Of a stretch of 64,000 nt of DNA, positions 27,001 through 45,000 are shown piece by piece. The stretch is from an uncultured Planctomycetota bacterium. GTDB taxonomy: Bacteria; Planctomycetota; Planctomycetia; Isosphaerales; Isosphaeraceae. Position numbers: made by a program. Where the stretch lies: NCBI GenBank assembly GCA_963737655.1, contig CAVTTN010000002.1, positions 1,792,001 to 1,856,000 on the forward strand. Reading direction: 5' to 3'. Positions within the stretch are counted from its first letter, which is position 1, and the number at the start of each line of letters is the position of its first letter.

Positions 27001-30000
27001 GGCGAGGATCTTGTGGTCGCGCTTGCCGCTGTCGATCATCGTCATCAGCCCGATGGCCCGGGCCGTGACCAGGGTCATCGGCGCCACGGCCTCCTGGCAG
27101 AGGACCAGGACGTCCAGAGGATCGTCGTCCTCGGCGTAGGTCTGGGGGATGAAGCCGTAATTGGCCGGGTAATACACGGCTGAATAGAGGACACGGTCCA
27201 TCCGGAGGAGGCCGGTCTTCTTGTCCAGCTCGTATTTGACGCTCGACCCCATCGGGATCTCGACCAGGGCGTTGAACTCCTGGGGCAGGTGCTCGCCGGG
27301 GGTCACGTCGTGCCAGGGGTGCAGCATCGCGGTCGGGCTTCCAGGGCGAATGGGGAAACATTTGCGGTCGTGGCTTGGATTGTACCATCGTCGGGTTCGG
27401 AAATCATCAGGGGATGGCTCGACGTGATCGTGTGTGCATTGGGCGGGAGAGGATCTCTTCCTTGACCCGAATCGGTGATCGCGTCGCCGGTCTGCCTCGA
27501 TGATGTGTTTGGAGACAAAAATCCAAGTCACCGGGCCCTCCGCCATTTATGCTCCGACTCGATCGACTCCGCCCATGCCAGATCGCCGACGCTCCCCCTC
27601 GGACGCCCGAGGGGCTGTGGGCTTGGGTCCTCGCCTTCACGGGCATTCGGATCGCCCGGGAGCCGGTCTGCCCGGGGCATTGTTCGCCCTGGAAGTTCTT
27701 CTCGGAGATGTACTTCGGGAGGCCCTCTCTGGCCGTCGTTCTCGGGGCTCGGGGGGCCGGCAAGTCGTTCCTGTCGGCCCTGGATACCCACATGACCAGC
27801 CGGTTCCGGCCGAGGCACGGGACGCGCATCCTGGGCGGGAGCCGGTCGCAGTCCGAGCAGGTCTATCGCGTCCTCCGCGAGACGATCCACGACGGGTCGG
27901 GGCCTCTGGGGTCCGATGCGTCCTCGATCGCCCGACTGTTGAAGACCGAGGCCCGGTATCGCAACGGTTCGGAGGTCGCGATCCTCGCGGCGTCGAGCCG
28001 GAGCGTCCGAGGCCCGCACGTCCCTAGCTTGAAGCTCGACGAGGTCGATGAAATCGACATCGAGCTGCGAGAGGCCGCGATGGGGATGTGCATGGCCCGG
28101 GGCGGCTCGTCCGCGTCGGTCCTGATGACCTCGACGTGGCATCGCGTGGGAGGACCGATGGAGGGCCTGGTCGAGCGGGGCCGGGCCGGGGAATTCCCTC
28201 TCTATACCTTCTGCGCCTTCGACGTCCTCGAACGCTGCCCGGAGGAACGCTCGGGACCTAACCTGGAGAAATGCCCGGCGTGCCCGCTGGTGGCGTATTG
28301 CCACGACGTCAGCGACGGCGGCCCTCCTCTGGCGAAGCGATCCGACGGCCATTATGCCATCGACGCGTTGATCCAGAAGGCTCGGACGACGGCCTCTCGG
28401 ACGTTCGAGGCCGATTACCTCTGTCGAGGGCCCAAGGCCGATGGCCTCTGGTTTCCGATGTTCCGGCCCGAGACCCACGTGGAACTTCGGGCCGAATACG
28501 ACCCGGCGTTGCCGGTGCATCTGGCGATCGACTCGGGAGTGTTCACCGGAGCGGTCTTCTTCCAGGTCGCCCTGCGGATGACGACCGAGGGCCTCGTGGA
28601 GGAGGTCCGCGTGTTCGCCGATTACCTGGCGGAAGGCTCGACGGCGGAAAATCATGCCAGAGCGATCATGGACGTGGCCCGATCTCGATGTAACGGAAGG
28701 GTGGACGTCGCTTCGACCGACCCGGCCGGAGGGGCGAGGAACCCAGTCGGCCCGACGGTGATCGCCGAGTACGAGCGGGTCGGTCTGCGCCCTCTTCGGC
28801 GATGGCCGTTGGGGGCGGTGGCCGACGGCCTGGCCCTGGTGGAGTCGTTCGTGAGCCCGGCCGACGGCCGCCCCCGCCTGCTCGTCCACCCGCGATGCGT
28901 CGCCCTGACGAACGCCCTCCGGGGTTATCGCCGGGCGAGGCGCGGTGGCCAGTGGCAGGATTATCCCGAGGACCCCCAGCACCCCCACGAGGACCTCGTG
29001 GACGCGCTCCGGGGGGGACTGCGTGCCTGTTTCCCCGAGGGACGTTCGTCCCGTCCGACCCTCGCGAGGGTCTCAGCCCGACAGGTCTTCTGATGCCCAA
29101 AGACACCCAGGACCTCGAACTGATCGGCCGCCGCCACCCCGAGTGGCGCGAGCACCAACTCCGCTGGCGATGGCTCCTCGACTCGCTCGAAGGGGGTGAG
29201 CGCTACCGCCAGGCGATTTATGGATATGACCGGCGCGGCCTCCCCGTGAGGAACCTCGTCCGTCACAAACGCGAATACCCCGACCCTCGCGACTGGACCG
29301 GAACGACCCTCGACGGGATGACCATCCCTGCGACTGGTCCGGACTCGATCGGCCTGACAACCGACGACGATTACGAGCTCCGGAGGGCACGTACCCCGGT
29401 GCCGACGTTCGTCGCCGAGGCCGTCGAGACCCACCTGGCCCGGGTCTACGCCCGAGAGGTTACCCGACGGGGCCCCGAGCGCCTCGTCGAATGGTGGAGG
29501 GACGTGGATGGCTGCGGGACGACGATCGACCACTGGATGGCCGAGACGATCGCGCCCTTGCTGCTGACGCTCGGCCAGCTCGACCTCTGCTTCGATCATC
29601 CCCCCGCCTCGGAGGGCGAGGAGATCGAGACGAGGGCTGATGTCCAGAGGCTGGGCCTGGATCGGTGCGTGGCCTCGTACATCCTGCCGGAAAACCTGCT
29701 CTGGTGGTCCTTGGACGAGTCGGGCAACCGGTACCGGGAATGCCTCGTCCGCGAGTTTCGCGAATCCGACGACGGGCCGGTCGCGCTCTACCGCCACTGG
29801 ACGGCCGAGGGCTGGACCCTCCTCGACCCGGAGGGTGAGACCCTCGCCTCGGCCGATCACCCGTTCGGTCGGGTGCCGATCGTCCGCGTGTTCGACGCGA
29901 GGAAGCCGAGGTGCCTGAACGTCGGCCAGTCGCGCTACGAGGGCGTCGCCGAGAGGCAGCGAGAGTACTACAACCGAGACTCCGAGCTGATCCTCTCGGA

Positions 30001-42000: not shown

Positions 42001-45000
42001 GGGGCCACTCGATCCAGGTGACCGCCGCGGCGGCTCCCCTGGCGGCCTGGCTTGCCGGGCACCTGACAGACCTGACCCCCTCGCCGGTGCTGCCTGTCCC
42101 GGTGACTCCTTCTCCCTCCGCCTGAACCACGTCGGCGAACGAGGTCGACCTCGGCTGGAACCCTCAGCCCAGGTCGACCTTCGCGTCTCCCGAACGGACG
42201 CACTCCAGGGCCGAGAGCGACGGACAGCCCTCCGGAAGTGTTGCCTCCTCCAGAATCATGTTCGGGATCTCGTCCTCGATGGCGAACCGAGGCCCGCAGC
42301 GGGTGCAGACCAGCGAATCCTCCTCCTGGCGGAGGGGAGCGTGTCCTAGGGGGCAAACCAGCAGGTCGAGTAGATCCTTCTGGACCATCGTCGTTGATCC
42401 CCGATCCTCGGAACGGAAGAGCACTGAGGAAAACCCGTCGCGCTACCCGGCGTTCACCGGGACCCTCACGATGGTCGAATTGCCGGACCTCTGCAACCCC
42501 AAGCCCGGCCCACCGCGAGCGACCGGGTTCGCTTTCCGTCCTGAGACGGCTCTCGACGCTCGGACCAGGGCGCGAGTCGGGGCTGGCCACGATCCAAAGG
42601 AGGTCGCGTTCTCATGGCCGTTCCTCACGGGGGTCGGGGGCGGGTCGGAAGGGGAGAGGATACCGATCCACCCGATCGGGACCACTCATCCTGTCTGACG
42701 TGGATGTTACAATCATCTCTTTGCTGCGCCTTGCCGGAGGCTGCGATTTTCGCCATCGGACTGCCTCTGGTCGAGGGCCTGCTGGGAAAACGCGGCCTTC
42801 CCAAGAACCCTGGGGGATCGGCTCGGAGTGCCACGCACCGGGTGATTGATTCGAAATCGTGCCTCAGCGTCGGGGCGGAGGGGTTCGCGATCGGGCCGGA
42901 ACGCCGTAGGATGGAAGATCGGCCCCGGTTATACTCGGTCCTGTCGGCCCGAACGTGCCAGCCGCCGCGTCCGCGTGACTGCTCGCCAGGAAGGCGTCTC
43001 CCGAGATGGTGAAGACCTACATTGTCCGCCACGGCCTGATGCGCTTCCTCGGCGAGTTCCGGGCCCTGGACGGCCAGGACCATCCCCGAGGCCAGCGAGT
43101 GGTTGTCCGCAGCGACCGCGGCCAGGAGATCGGAGAGGTCCTCTGCCCGGCCACCGACCGGACGGCCCTGTTCCTTGAGAATCCGGCCCGAGGCGAGATC
43201 CTCCGCCTGGCCTCGGCCGAGGACCTCTCGGCCGAGCGTCTGCTCTCGGCCAAGCAGAAGGACGGGTTCGCAACCTGCCAGGAGTTCATCGGCCGACGGA
43301 AGCTTCAGATGGATCTCGTCGATGTTGAGGCGATCCTCGGCGGCGAGCGGATGGTCTTCTACTACCTGGCCGAGAAGCGGGTGGATTTCCGCGAGCTGGT
43401 CAAGGATCTCGCGCGGACCTTTCACACCCGGATCGAGATGAGGCAGATCGGCGTCAGGGACGAGGCGAAGCTCCTGGCCGATTATGGTGACTGCGGGAAG
43501 CCGGTCTGCTGCAATACCCACCTCTCCCGGATGCCCCCGGTCTCGATGAGGATGGCCAAGCTCCAGAAAACCACGCTGGACCCCTCGAAAATTTCCGGGC
43601 GTTGTGGTAGGCTCAAGTGCTGCCTCCGCTACGAGTTCGACACCTACCAGGCCCTCGAGCGCGACCTCCCGGCCGTCGGCTCGAAGGTGGTTACCCCTCT
43701 CGGACCAGGCCGGGTCCTCGCCCTGGAAGTTCTCGCCCGGAAAGTCGTCGTGGAATTCGAGGACCGAAGGCGGGTCATCGTCGGCCCCGACGAGATCCTC
43801 GGTGTCGAATCCAGGGGACGGCCTCGCAAGGGGGAGAACGACGATCGCGTCGATCGGTGATCGCTCGACGCCCCGGACAGAAAGGGACTTCGTCATGAGC
43901 CTCCGCGACGAATTGGCCCGGGTCCTGGCCCGCGACAGCCGGTATCCGGTCCAGGCTTACGCCTTCGTGTTCGAGACCCTGGAGCACGCCAAGCTCCTCA
44001 AGAGGCGCGCACGGGCCAGGGCCCGCCGCGCCCGAGGGTCCGAGGGATCCCATCATGTGACCGGACAGGAGCTGTGCGAGGGCGCCCGCGACCTGGCCCT
44101 CCGCCAGTACGGGCTGATGGCCCTGACCGTCCTGGCCCAGTGGGGCATCCGCTCCACGGCCGACATCGGCAACATCGTCTACAACCTGATCGCCTCGGGC
44201 GACCTGGAGAAGACCGAATCGGACTCCCGGGCCGACTTCGACCGCGTCTTCGACTTCGACGAGGCATTCCGCCGCGGCTACGTGCTGGTCCTGGACGACG
44301 TGGCCTGAGCCGACCCGGAAAGGAGTGACGGATGGCCCGGACGGATGGTTCGCGGTTGTGGTTCATTGTCTCCTTGGTGGCCTTCGTGGCCTGGGTTTCG
44401 GCGCTGGGCGTGATGGCCGTCGCCTCCGGAAGTTGGCCCAAGGCACCCAAGGCTCCCGCGAAGGCCGAAGCTCCCGGGCCGAGGTGACTCGATGCGGTCC
44501 CCCTTGGTCCCTGGGCGTCGTCACGACCCCGAGCTCATGGATGCCCCCGGCCTGCCCGAGGCCGAGGTCGCCGACGCCTATCGAGTCCTCGAACGGGTCA
44601 ATCGCCAGTTCTTCGGGAATCGTCGGCCCCTGGACCGCGAGATCGCCCGGTTTCGGTCCCAGGAAGCCGCCGGACTCGGCGTCTGCACCCTTCTGGACGT
44701 TGGATCGGGATCCGGGGACCTGCCCCGGTCGGCGGTCGAGTCACTCGCTCGCCGGGGCCTCCCGGCTCTGGCCATCCCCCTGGATCGCGATCCCGTCGCG
44801 ATCGCCCTGGCCGCCCGGGCCGGCTCGCCGGCCGTCCGGGGTGACGCCCTCCGCCTCCCGTTCCCCGATCGCTCGATCGACCTGGTCACCGCGGCCAAGT
44901 TTGCCCACCACTTCGACGGCCCGGCCCTGCAACGTCTGATCGCCGAGATGGCCCGGGTGGCCCGGAGGCGCGTGATCGTCCTGGACATCCGCCGCCACTG

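What a model noticed while it worked through the whole genome (the two positions that open the first line are those of the whole stretch)
27549..42125. Family-wide, syntenic podovirus-like head/packaging module without integrase or replication genes: candidate gene transf [...]
g01569-g01580 (14.6 kb, one strand) encode a large terminase (g01569), portal (g01570), scaffold (g01572), SU10-type HK97-fold major capsid protein (g01573), a conserved 223-aa protein whose model resembles the particle-binding N-terminal domain of podoviral tailspikes (g01574), tail-spike-like proteins (g01575-g01578; g01577 has Gp80/pectate-lyase-like parts) and two small conserved proteins (g01579, g01580). There is no integrase, repressor, replication, lysis or small-terminase gene, no tRNA or att repeat, and the flanks are housekeeping genes (pfk-S4-cvpA-ppa upstream; trm112, PSP1 downstream). 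The head module is single-copy, intact and at the same chromosomal place in most genera of the [...]
Evidence so far: PHROGs: TerL phrog_2 E 2e-12, portal phrog_145 E 9e-33, scaffold phrog_206 E 5e-7, major head phrog_1328 E 2e-11; Pfam SU10_MCP, Gp80 (tables). Portal by six-frame search: 93 of 120 other Isosphaeraceae genomes (43 of 53 genera), mostly 1 match, 58-76% identity, open frames; 0 of 150 genomes of 77 other Planctomycetota families at E<=1e-30. Synteny in 10 fetched loci of 8 genera: TerL-portal-scaffold-MCP-g01574 in 10 of 10 (scaffold not detected in 1), pfk/S4 upstream in 3, g01579/g01580/trm112 downstream in 4-7; identities of TerL (56-81%), portal (59-75%), MCP (51-77%) are like those of the flanking pfk (69-77%). 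g01574 model pLDDT 88; best fold matches are N-terminal parts of phage tail f [...]
(Added by a program. Inside this text positions count along the whole contig: contig position 1,792,001 is position 1 of the stretch shown here. "Call 12" and the like, gene names such as g00115 and contig names such as C1 are that model's own, and its searches are not shown. The text may have been shortened before it was handed on; [...] marks where a part breaks off. The agent that wrote the report below was given it as the finding of a first reader that could run no searches.)

Follow-up and report, generated by a model that had tools for sequence, protein, structure and literature searches.

The report
Tamed phage head-and-neck gene cluster
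One family of planctomycete bacteria has kept the particle-building genes of an ancient, probably long-tailed virus working in its chromosome, and in this genome the tail genes are gone while the DNA-packing head, neck and surface spikes remain, so it may make a new, perhaps tail-less, kind of gene-transfer particle.

Summary
The cluster is real, and the family hits and the family-wide distribution reproduce. New tests support vertical inheritance and selection. Portal and rpoB trees share 19 of 31 splits. dN/dS is 0.04-0.14 for TerL, portal, capsid and g74 in one genus. No integrase, tRNA or att repeat lies nearby.

Several readings change:
- "Podovirus-like" is not supported. g79 has the lambda gpU tail-terminator fold. 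g74 matches head-to-tail adaptors over its whole length.
- Relatives at the same locus, and true prophages, carry tail genes after g79.
- The window's genus and about a third of portal-positive genomes lack the tail-tube-like gene, and the window's genome has no match to any tail protein tested.
- The spike cassette g75-g78 ranges from four genes to none within the genus.
- The capsid gene, g79 and an unannotated small gene (32820-33166) each carry a one-base frame break here. rpoC, secA and gyrA do too, so these are probably assembly errors.

Best reading: a domesticated, GTA-like structural module, reduced here to head, neck and spikes. Particle production and DNA transfer are untested.

The parts
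27549..29093 (+). Large terminase (TerL)
   Evidence: phrog_2 1.6e-12. Walker A G66-K72-S73, Walker B D164-E165, T194-S195-T196 and nuclease D328, D391, D482/D485 are unchanged in at least 27 of 28 aligned relatives. dN/dS 0.044-0.068 in genus g52 and 0.15-0.19 in the window's genus.
29093..30697 (+). Portal
   Evidence: phrog_145 9e-33. Found in 93 of 120 other family genomes. dN/dS 0.066-0.24 in 11 pairs.
30879..31472 (+). Scaffolding protein
   Evidence: phrog_206 5.1e-7. tblastn match in 17 of 20 loci, all but L037, L041 and L048.
31579..32722 (+). SU10-type HK97-fold major capsid protein, read in two frames in this assembly (+1 change near 31828-31832)
   Evidence: Pfam SU10_MCP 2.6e-34 on 31832-32722. 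The third-position GC plot switches frame there. Relatives have one continuous frame.
32820..33166 (+).
   Evidence: tblastn match in 8 of 20 loci and 6 of 6 further loci. ORFs and alignment. dN/dS 0.15-0.18 in g52. No family or PDB match.
33163..33834 (+). g74: probable head-to-tail adaptor (neck) protein with an inserted beta domain
   Evidence: Model pLDDT 89. Whole-length matches: phage 812 neck Z 9.8/9.4, Mu neck 9.0, N4 8.0, DEV 7.5, SU10 7.1, GP4 6.9, HK97 gp6 6.1. Present in 19 of 20 loci. dN/dS 0.105-0.136 in spike-less g52.
33923..35317 (+). g75: spike-like protein, first gene of the variable cassette; the beta-helix reading is my own, from its sequence repeats
   Evidence: No Pfam, PHROG or PDB sequence match. 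Present in G080, G081 and G027; absent in G082. dN/dS 0.40-0.94.
35302..36441 (+). g76: fibre or spike protein with a perfect 249-nt tandem duplication (35471-35712 and 35720-35961)
   Evidence: Repeat found. Homologues in G080, G081 and G027. No family match.
36562..39615 (+). g77: pectate-lyase-like beta-helix spike with two C-terminal Gp80-type fibre modules
   Evidence: Pfam Gp80 1.4e-33 (two stretches), Pect-lyase_RHGA_epim 1.1e-7, Beta_helix 0.0048. GP4 gp80 is a 140-aa fibre monomer (passages of PMC13730344).
39625..41274 (+). g78: fibre-like protein with conserved ends and a variable middle
   Evidence: Relatives match residues 1-158 and about 400-549 only. No family or PDB match.
41291..41843 (+). 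g79: tail-terminator-fold protein (lambda gpU type); frame change near 41690 in this assembly
   Evidence: Model of the intact homologue L034:1574-2128, pLDDT 79. VIA Z 14.6-12.2: Mu terminator, pyocin R2 collar, T5 p142, lambda gpU, RcGTA 6tba_4A. Foldseek best E 3.6e-7 with 58 matches at E<=0.001. Frames shown.
41886..42125 (+). g80: small protein found only in the tail-less form of the element
   Evidence: jackhmmer finds 11 loci including the window, all of the short form. dN/dS 0.14-0.17 in g52. No family match.
26785..27330 (-). ppa, left host flank, divergent from TerL; no small HTH gene (F8) lies between them
   Evidence: 82-88% identical to relatives' ppa. The F8 profile finds nothing in this genome, best E 0.14.
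42173..42403 (-). Trm112-like gene, right host flank, followed by PSP1 at 43006-43860
   Evidence: Relatives' F30 matches here. Trm112p 2.7e-5 on the homologue. PSP1 1.1e-29.

Best explanation
This is the local copy of an old, chromosomally fixed, host-maintained remnant of a tailed phage's structural module, that is, a GTA-like 'viriform'.

The fuller form in the family reads: small HTH gene F8, TerL, portal, scaffold, SU10-type capsid, a small protein, adaptor g74, optional neck fibres, terminator g79, then a tube-like gene and tail-tip genes. It has no lysogeny, replication or lysis genes and is bounded by housekeeping genes. In the window's genus the tube and tail-tip genes and F8 are gone. 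What remains is a DNA-packaging head, a neck (g74 and g79), g80 and a fast-changing cassette of polysaccharide-lyase-like spikes (g75-g78).

Inferred mechanism. Under host control the scaffold and capsid protein build a procapsid on the portal. TerL, whose ATPase and nuclease motifs are intact, fills it with DNA. With no recognisable small terminase this is probably host DNA packed by the headful. g74 and the g79 ring close the portal. The spikes sit on the neck and bind or cut surface glycans of other cells.

Shown here: gene identities and folds, vertical descent, purifying selection, absence of mobility genes, and loss of the tail genes. Inferred: particle formation, what DNA is packed, release, and any delivery to recipients.
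For: Identity of the parts.

Not a mobile prophage:
- No tRNA, att repeat or integrase in or beside the cluster.
- The F8-to-last-tail-gene element of G120 is 16.6 kb and lies between a histidine methyltransferase gene and PSP1.
- True prophage relatives carry an integrase or serine recombinase, and the most complete one (G421) also a repressor, antirepressor, DnaB and a clamp. They sit on long branches outside the chromosomal clade.

Vertical descent:
- Portal is in 93 of 120 other family genomes, against only weak matches in 8 of 300 outside the family.
- At least one flank gene is shared in 13 of 26 genomes, in 8 other genera.
- Portal and rpoB trees of 34 genomes (21 genera) share 19 of 31 splits, 6 of them joining different genera. 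In 2000 label shuffles the mean was 0.2 and the maximum 4.

Selection:
- In spike-less, tail-less genus g52, dN/dS is 0.044-0.068 for TerL, 0.065-0.09 for portal, 0.04-0.11 for capsid, 0.105-0.136 for g74 and 0.14-0.17 for g80. The flanking host methyltransferase gives 0.15-0.23.
- In the window's genus, TerL is 0.15-0.19, portal 0.20-0.28 and capsid 0.15-0.27.

Tail loss:
- No homologue of the tube-like, 123-, 227-, 345-, 809- or 111-aa tail proteins anywhere in this genome.
- The tube-like gene is found in 0 of 3 genus mates and in 61 of 93 portal-positive genomes.
Against: - No particle, packaged DNA, expression or transfer data exist. No RNA run was available.
- No small terminase, lysis gene or regulator was identified in the window. 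The HTH gene F8, which precedes TerL in 10 loci, is missing from this genus.
- Without tube and tail-tip proteins there is no known route for DNA delivery, so the window's copy may not be a GTA in the strict sense.
- In the window's genus dN/dS of g79 (0.55), g77 (0.64) and g75 (0.40-0.94) is high, and dS is near saturation.
- Three genes carry frame breaks in this assembly. I attribute them to consensus errors but could not check reads.
- Tree congruence is mostly shallow. The Mantel rank correlation of distances is only 0.18, with 107 of 2000 shuffles as high, and G098 and G017 are misplaced.
- 27 of 120 genomes have no portal match, and some of these are 95-99% complete.
- No tape-measure-like gene was found with this query in the 'long' chromosomal forms.
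Confidence: 0.55

Rival explanations
1. Decaying relic in this genus. The family-wide element was functional with its tail. In the window's lineage the loss of the tail genes and of F8 ended its function, and the head genes are drifting towards loss.
For: Tail genes and F8 are absent. There are three frame breaks in 14.6 kb. dN/dS in the genus is higher than in g52, and 0.55-0.94 for g79, g77 and g75. G110 has a premature stop in g79.
Against: Head genes in all four genus members are full length and still show dN/dS of 0.15-0.28 at dS of about 0.6-1.1. The same tail-less layout in g52 is under strong constraint. Frame breaks occur at a similar rate in essential genes: 3 of 6, about 19 kb. The tail-less form with g80 is shared by at least 5 genera, so it is old yet retained.
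Confidence: 0.18
2. A head-only helper-dependent or anti-phage element. The host-fixed head and neck module joins tails supplied by infecting or resident phages of the same lineage, in the manner of capsid-forming PICI satellites. It would either move host DNA or sabotage the phage.
For: Head plus connector genes without tail genes is the cf-PICI layout (recalled, not read here). Related temperate phages with homologous adaptor, terminator and tail genes occur in the same family.
Against: No integrase, replication or excision genes are present and descent is vertical. The element keeps its own terminator-fold gene, which in lambda-type assembly belongs to the tail rather than the head (established knowledge). 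This genome has no related tail donor. Fibre-less forms would gain receptor binding only from the donor.
Confidence: 0.12
3. An ordinary defective prophage, or repeated independent integrations of related phages at one hot spot, with no host function.
For: The genes are of phage origin. Related active-looking prophages exist. Some genomes have broken copies.
Against: No integrase or att site. Both flanks are conserved across genera. The trees are congruent with the host. dN/dS is far below 1 over family-level divergence. Chromosomal copies have short branches and prophage copies long ones. Many 'broken' copies lie in assemblies that also split rpoB.
Confidence: 0.05

Closest known systems
RcGTA-type gene transfer agents of Alphaproteobacteria (Rhodobacter capsulatus GTA)
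   Same: A roughly 15-17 kb chromosomal cluster holding only structural genes of a long-tailed phage: terminase, portal, capsid, adaptor, terminator, tube and tail tip. It lacks integrase and replication genes, is inherited vertically and is under purifying selection. The RcGTA terminator (6tba_4A) matches g79 at Z 12.2. What I state about RcGTA itself is recalled plus the abstracts listed.
   Different: No sequence-level relation was seen. The capsid is of the SU10 Pfam family and is built with a scaffold gene, and no protease was found. The host phylum is different. In the window the tube and tail-tip genes are missing and a spike cassette sits between adaptor and terminator. No regulator, lysis gene or small terminase is known. 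Production and transfer are untested.
Temperate phages of the same lineage (IMG/VR provirus G421; second copies in G053, G091, G092)
   Same: Same order TerL, portal, scaffold, SU10-type capsid ... g74 ... g79. Identity is 42-52% for portal, 37-42% for g74 and about 28-34% for g79.
   Different: Each carries an integrase or serine recombinase. G421 also has a CI-like repressor, antirepressor, recombinase, DnaB, clamp and methylases. Six to nine extra genes lie between capsid and g74, including an ADP-ribosyltransferase-domain protein. A 636-aa tape-measure-like gene and a full tail follow.
Capsid-forming phage-inducible chromosomal islands (cf-PICIs)
   Same: They encode head and head-tail connector genes but no tail (recalled).
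   Different: cf-PICIs are mobile, with integrase, replication and helper induction. None of these is present here, and this element is vertically inherited.
Podophages SU10 and GP4 (source of the Pfam families SU10_MCP and Gp80)
   Same: Capsid family (2.6e-34) and fibre module (1.4e-33). The SU10 and GP4 adaptors match g74 at Z 7.1 and 6.9.
   Different: Those are short-tailed phages with a nozzle. Here no nozzle was found, g79 has a terminator fold, and relatives have tube-like and lambda-J-like tail genes.

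Membership tests
Gene transfer agent (viriform) | Phage-derived structural gene cluster in the chromosome without integration, replication or lysogeny genes | tested here: met
   Pfam and PHROG scans of the cluster and flanks; no tRNA or att repeat; contrast with true prophages.
Gene transfer agent (viriform) | Vertical inheritance with the host and purifying selection | tested here: met
   19 of 31 splits shared with rpoB; shared flanks in 13 of 26 genomes; dN/dS 0.04-0.28 for head genes. Caveat: one marker gene, and mostly shallow nodes.
Gene transfer agent (viriform) | Complete virion gene set including a tail able to deliver DNA | tested here: not met
   For the window: no tube-like or tail-tip homologue in the genome. 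Relatives G118, G120, G053, G078 and G058 do have them at the same locus, but no tape-measure-like gene was found with this query.
Gene transfer agent (viriform) | Particles are produced, package random host DNA in pieces too small to encode the element, and transfer it | not testable with these tools
   Needs cultures, microscopy, sequencing of protected DNA and marker-transfer assays.
Podovirus-type (short-tailed) virion module | Adaptor plus nozzle, and no terminator, tube or tape measure | tested here: not met
   g79 has the gpU terminator fold. A tube-like gene follows g79 in relatives. No nozzle was recognised.
Pfam SU10_MCP (PF17236) capsid family | Score above the curated cut-off | tested here: met
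   119.5 bits against a cut-off of 24.1, on profile positions 56-292. The N-terminal part lies in the other frame.
Head-to-tail adaptor (HK97 gp6 / podoviral adaptor class), for g74 | Whole-length structural match to solved adaptors | tested here: inconclusive
   Z 9.8-6.1 to about 20 phage neck or adaptor chains over model residues 4-215. These Z values are middling by the tool's own note. BFVD gives weak tail-fibre matches, E 5e-4 to 5e-3 with rmsd above 20 A for most.
Tail terminator (lambda gpU class), for g79 | Structural match to solved terminators | tested here: met
   Z 14.6-12.2 with 116-137 residues aligned; Foldseek E 3.6e-7, probability 1.00, 58 matches at E<=0.001. The model was made from the intact homologue in G053.
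Capsid-forming PICI | Integrase, replication module and helper-dependent induction | tested here: not met
   No such genes in or beside the cluster. Induction is not testable.

The most novel reading that the evidence does not exclude
The tail-less form is not a wreck but a working new kind of particle: a host-encoded, DNA-filled capsid closed by an adaptor and a terminator-fold ring. In some species it is armed with neck-mounted glycan-cutting spikes and in others it is bare. It would have evolved from a long-tailed GTA-like ancestor, a long-tailed to short-tailed transition inside a domesticated element. It moves or exports host DNA without a tail. Selection has kept it for a genus-to-family time span in at least five genera.
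Probability: 0.25. Interest if true: 0.85.

Novelty: new variant of a known kind. Interest (0 to 1): 0.72.

Why it matters
Gene transfer agents are known from only a few lineages. I found no paper reporting one in Planctomycetota: four full-text searches, judged from titles and abstract starts only. This family offers a natural series. It runs from true temperate phages, through a tailed chromosomal module that holds only structural genes, to tail-less and even spike-less head-and-neck modules that selection still preserves. That series makes two questions directly testable. How is a phage tamed step by step? Can a DNA-packaging capsid be useful to a cell without any tail? The family has cultured members (recalled), so microscopy, sequencing of protected DNA and knock-outs should be feasible.

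Tried and rejected
- Reads. The look-up of sequencing runs listed one run holding 0.04 of the words and no RNA holder. I did not lay it, so the frame breaks are unchecked by reads and there is no expression evidence either way.
- A programmed frameshift in the capsid gene is rejected. The three genus mates and all other relatives have one frame.
- Sequence searches against PDB gave nothing useful for g74, g79, g75, g76, g78, g77 or the small gene. The Atlas gave nothing for the small gene.
- Pfam and PHROGs gave nothing for g74, g75, g76, g78, g79 or g80, and almost nothing for the relatives' tail genes.
- F8 was not found in this genome by tblastn or by profile, nor near TerL in G080, G081, G082, G015, G110, G112, G113 or G114.
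- g80 is not detectably related to the last tail gene (111 aa) of the long form, so I cannot say how the short form arose.
- GC content does not separate chromosomal from prophage copies.
- The distance correlation between portal and rpoB is weak (0.18).
- My first rpoB tree was wrong. In one search thirteen rows were translated from the wrong strand, which showed up. I rebuilt it and use only the corrected tree.
- Rows dropped. Of 53 portal rows, 4 were dropped for a stop or under 80% coverage (G057, primary G092, G014, G033). The congruence test used the 34 genomes that also had an unbroken rpoB that I had fetched.
- Complex prediction was not used. Earlier scan notes were leads only.
The tools show only code f1, and I did not verify the name.

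Full report
**What is there.** On the + strand between 27549 and 42125 lie TerL, portal, a scaffold gene, an SU10-type capsid gene, g74, four large spike or fibre genes (g75-g78), g79 and g80.
- The window has no tRNA, no Rfam match and no direct repeat that could mark att sites.
- The cluster's GC (0.689) equals the genome's (0.687).
- The portal is single-copy in this 7.63-Mb, 3-contig genome.
- The flanks are housekeeping genes: pfk, S4-domain, cvpA and ppa on the left; Trm112, PSP1, a methyltransferase and a flavoprotein on the right.

**Corrections to the gene map.**
- A third-position GC plot and the relatives show that the capsid gene starts at 31579 and changes frame by +1 near 31830.
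- g79 changes frame near 41690 and ends at 41843.
- None of these shifts is shared by the three genus mates, so they are not programmed.
- The same assembly has frame changes in rpoC, secA and gyrA but not in rpoB, dnaE or valS. That is 3 of 6 long essential genes, about 19 kb. A PMT_2 glycosyltransferase in the window is also affected.
- Completeness is 87.7% in spite of only 3 contigs.
- Three breaks in 14.6 kb fit that error rate, so I read them as assembly errors. I could not check reads, because only one run holding 0.04 of the words was listed.

**Distribution and descent.**
- The portal is found in 93 of 120 other genomes of the family, in 43 of 53 genera, and in 37 of 47 high-quality genomes.
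- In 300 genomes of other families of the phylum only 8 have a match, the best at E 7.2e-25 and 30% identity.
- Several 'broken' copies lie in assemblies that also split rpoB.
- I fetched 20 kb around the portal in 20 genomes, extended five of them and added six more genomes.
- Thirteen of these 26 genomes, in 8 other genera, share at least one flanking housekeeping gene with the window. Seven have the ppa/cvpA/S4/pfk block upstream; it is inverted relative to the window. Ten have PSP1 and its neighbours downstream.
- A second group of genera (g2, g48, g38, g12, g16, g49, g11) has other flanks: UvrA-like, or an ABC transporter. It also has six extra small genes before TerL.
- A portal tree of 49 rows puts the chromosomal copies on short branches with genera together.
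- On the 34 genomes (21 genera) for which I also held an unbroken rpoB, the portal and rpoB trees share 19 of 31 splits. Six of these join different genera. In 2000 label shuffles the mean was 0.2 and the maximum 4.
- The distance correlation is weak (0.18), and G098 and G017 are misplaced.

**Selection.**
- Portal dN/dS (NG86) is 0.066-0.24 in 11 species pairs.
- In genus g52 the element has neither spikes nor tail. There TerL is 0.044-0.068, portal 0.065-0.09, capsid 0.04-0.11, scaffold 0.15-0.23, the small gene 0.15-0.18, g74 0.105-0.136 and g80 0.14-0.17. The flanking host methyltransferase gives 0.15-0.23.
- In the window's genus the head genes give 0.15-0.28, and the spike genes and g79 give 0.4-0.9, with dS near saturation.
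- TerL keeps its Walker A, Walker B, coupling and nuclease residues in at least 27 of 28 sequences.

**True phage relatives.**
- Second, more distant portal copies are prophages. One has a tyrosine integrase and an HTH_23 protein before TerL (G092). One has a serine recombinase (G091). One has phage methylase and DUF932 genes (G053). One has a TerL with inteins (G049).
- An IMG/VR provirus of 53.8 kb (G421) has the same head and neck genes plus an integrase, CI-like repressor, antirepressor, YqaJ recombinase, DnaB, sliding clamp and methylases.
- In these phages six to nine genes lie between capsid and g74, among them an ADP-ribosyltransferase-domain protein.
- After g79 the provirus G421 has proteins of 145, 114, 148, 636, 74, 123, 227, 345, 809 and 111 aa, and the other prophages carry homologues of most of them.

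**What the unknown core proteins are.**
- g79 was modelled from the intact G053 homologue with 13 aligned sequences (pLDDT 79). It has the tail-terminator fold. VIA gives Z 14.6-12.2 to a Salmonella prophage protein, the Mu terminator, the pyocin R2 collar, T5 p142, lambda gpU and the RcGTA terminator. Foldseek gives a best E of 3.6e-7 and 58 matches at E<=0.001.
- g74 (pLDDT 89) matches neck or adaptor proteins over its whole length: phage 812 (Z 9.8/9.4), Mu, P74-26, JBD30, T4 gp13/14, N4, DEV, SU10, GP4 and HK97 gp6.
- Only g74's beta insert (about residues 27-122) matches tailspike parts.
- The Z values for g74 are middling, so I call it a probable adaptor. Its retention under selection in spike-less genomes favours a neck role.

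**The tail.**
- The 145-aa protein after g79 is 50-56% identical to a gene that follows g79 in the syntenic copies of G118, G120, G053, G078 and G058.
- In G118, G120, G053, G078 and G058, homologues of the 114-, 123-, 227-, 345-, 809- and 111-aa proteins follow as well. PSP1 comes next in G120, G053 and G078.
- In G120 the whole element, from F8 to its last gene, is 16.6 kb.
- The Atlas places the 145-aa protein nearest to clusters carrying tail-tube families, at scores 0.92-0.93. This is a lead only.
- The 227-aa protein weakly matches lambda-J-type tail tip, E 8.6e-5.
- The 636-aa protein looks like a tape measure. That is my reading of its sequence, and no family hit supports it. It was found only in prophages with this query.
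- The tube-like gene is present in 64 of 120 family genomes and in 61 of the 93 with a portal. By my reading of the two tables, in 46 of those 61 it lies on the same contig and strand, 6-32 kb downstream of the portal.
- It is absent from the window's genome and its 3 genus mates, and from g3, g9, g13, g21, g50 and four of five g52 genomes. The fifth, G114, has only a 33% match on another contig.
- None of the other tail proteins has a match in the window's genome.
- All tail-less forms examined carry g80 next to Trm112, in 11 loci.

**The variable part.** The cassette between g74 and g79 differs within the genus. The window has g75-g78. G080 has at least g75-g77. G081 has g75-g76. G082 has none. 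g76 carries a perfect 249-nt tandem duplication.

**Reading.**
- The evidence fits a long-resident, host-maintained structural module of a probably long-tailed phage, comparable in content and size to RcGTA. In the window's lineage it is reduced to head, neck and spikes.
- 'Podovirus-like' should be dropped.
- 'GTA candidate' stands for the family's tailed form. For the window it needs the qualifier that no tail exists.
- Whether tail-less heads have a use is the open and interesting point. Gene transfer, DNA export and interference with related phages are all possible. Strong selection on them in g52 says they do something.
- I found no paper on such an element in Planctomycetota in four full-text searches, judged from titles and abstract starts.
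- Earlier notes of this scan mention other domesticated phage loci, one of them in Phycisphaerae. I did not test them.

Noticed in passing
window 14709-16276 (+): A PMT_2 glycosyltransferase is split between two overlapping frames: profile positions 1-110 in one ORF and 108-160 in the next. This is another single-base frame change in this assembly.
   Followed up: partly
G000:C2 about 6639380 (rpoC), about 323539 (secA), about 5792900 (gyrA), all outside the window: Three essential genes are split between frames in this assembly. Many few-contig, low-completeness assemblies of the family also split rpoB. Apparent pseudogenes in these genomes should not be trusted without reads.
   Followed up: partly
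window 35471-35961: A perfect tandem duplication (2 x 242 nt, spacing 249) inside g76 adds an 83-residue module to the fibre protein. It is either very recent or an assembly effect.
   Followed up: no
L031:7043-7342, L046:7024-7284, L047:7090-7323 and 7 further loci: A small gene (77-125 aa) with a conserved HTH-like C-terminal motif lies directly before TerL in 10 loci. It is absent from the window's genus and some others. It could be a regulator or a small terminase.
   Followed up: partly
window 27549-29093 (TerL residues about 222-252): TerL carries a cluster of near-invariant Cys and His residues (C222, C230, C242, C245, C251, H252; also C41 and H44). This suggests a metal-binding insert between the ATPase and nuclease parts.
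   Followed up: no
L056:9691-11937; L115:11304-12773: The related prophages encode a large protein with an ADP-ribosyltransferase exoenzyme domain between capsid and adaptor. The position is typical of injected or internal virion proteins. The chromosomal elements lack it.
   Followed up: no
L063:5155-8805: One prophage relative (G049) has a 1216-aa TerL interrupted by intein, Hint and LAGLIDADG domains.
   Followed up: no
window 19570-24360 (+): A 1596-aa Ser/Thr protein kinase is fused to a long TPR array just left of pfk. A homologous kinase part lies near the element in G014.
   Followed up: no
L123 about 8963-9316 (G110): The g79 homologue of G110 appears to have an early in-frame stop, while G112 and G114 are open.
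   Followed up: no
L041 (G029:C1:216042-236041): This 20-kb locus shows a portal match (50% identity) but none of the other module genes by tblastn. G029 also has a second portal copy and a split rpoB.
   Followed up: no
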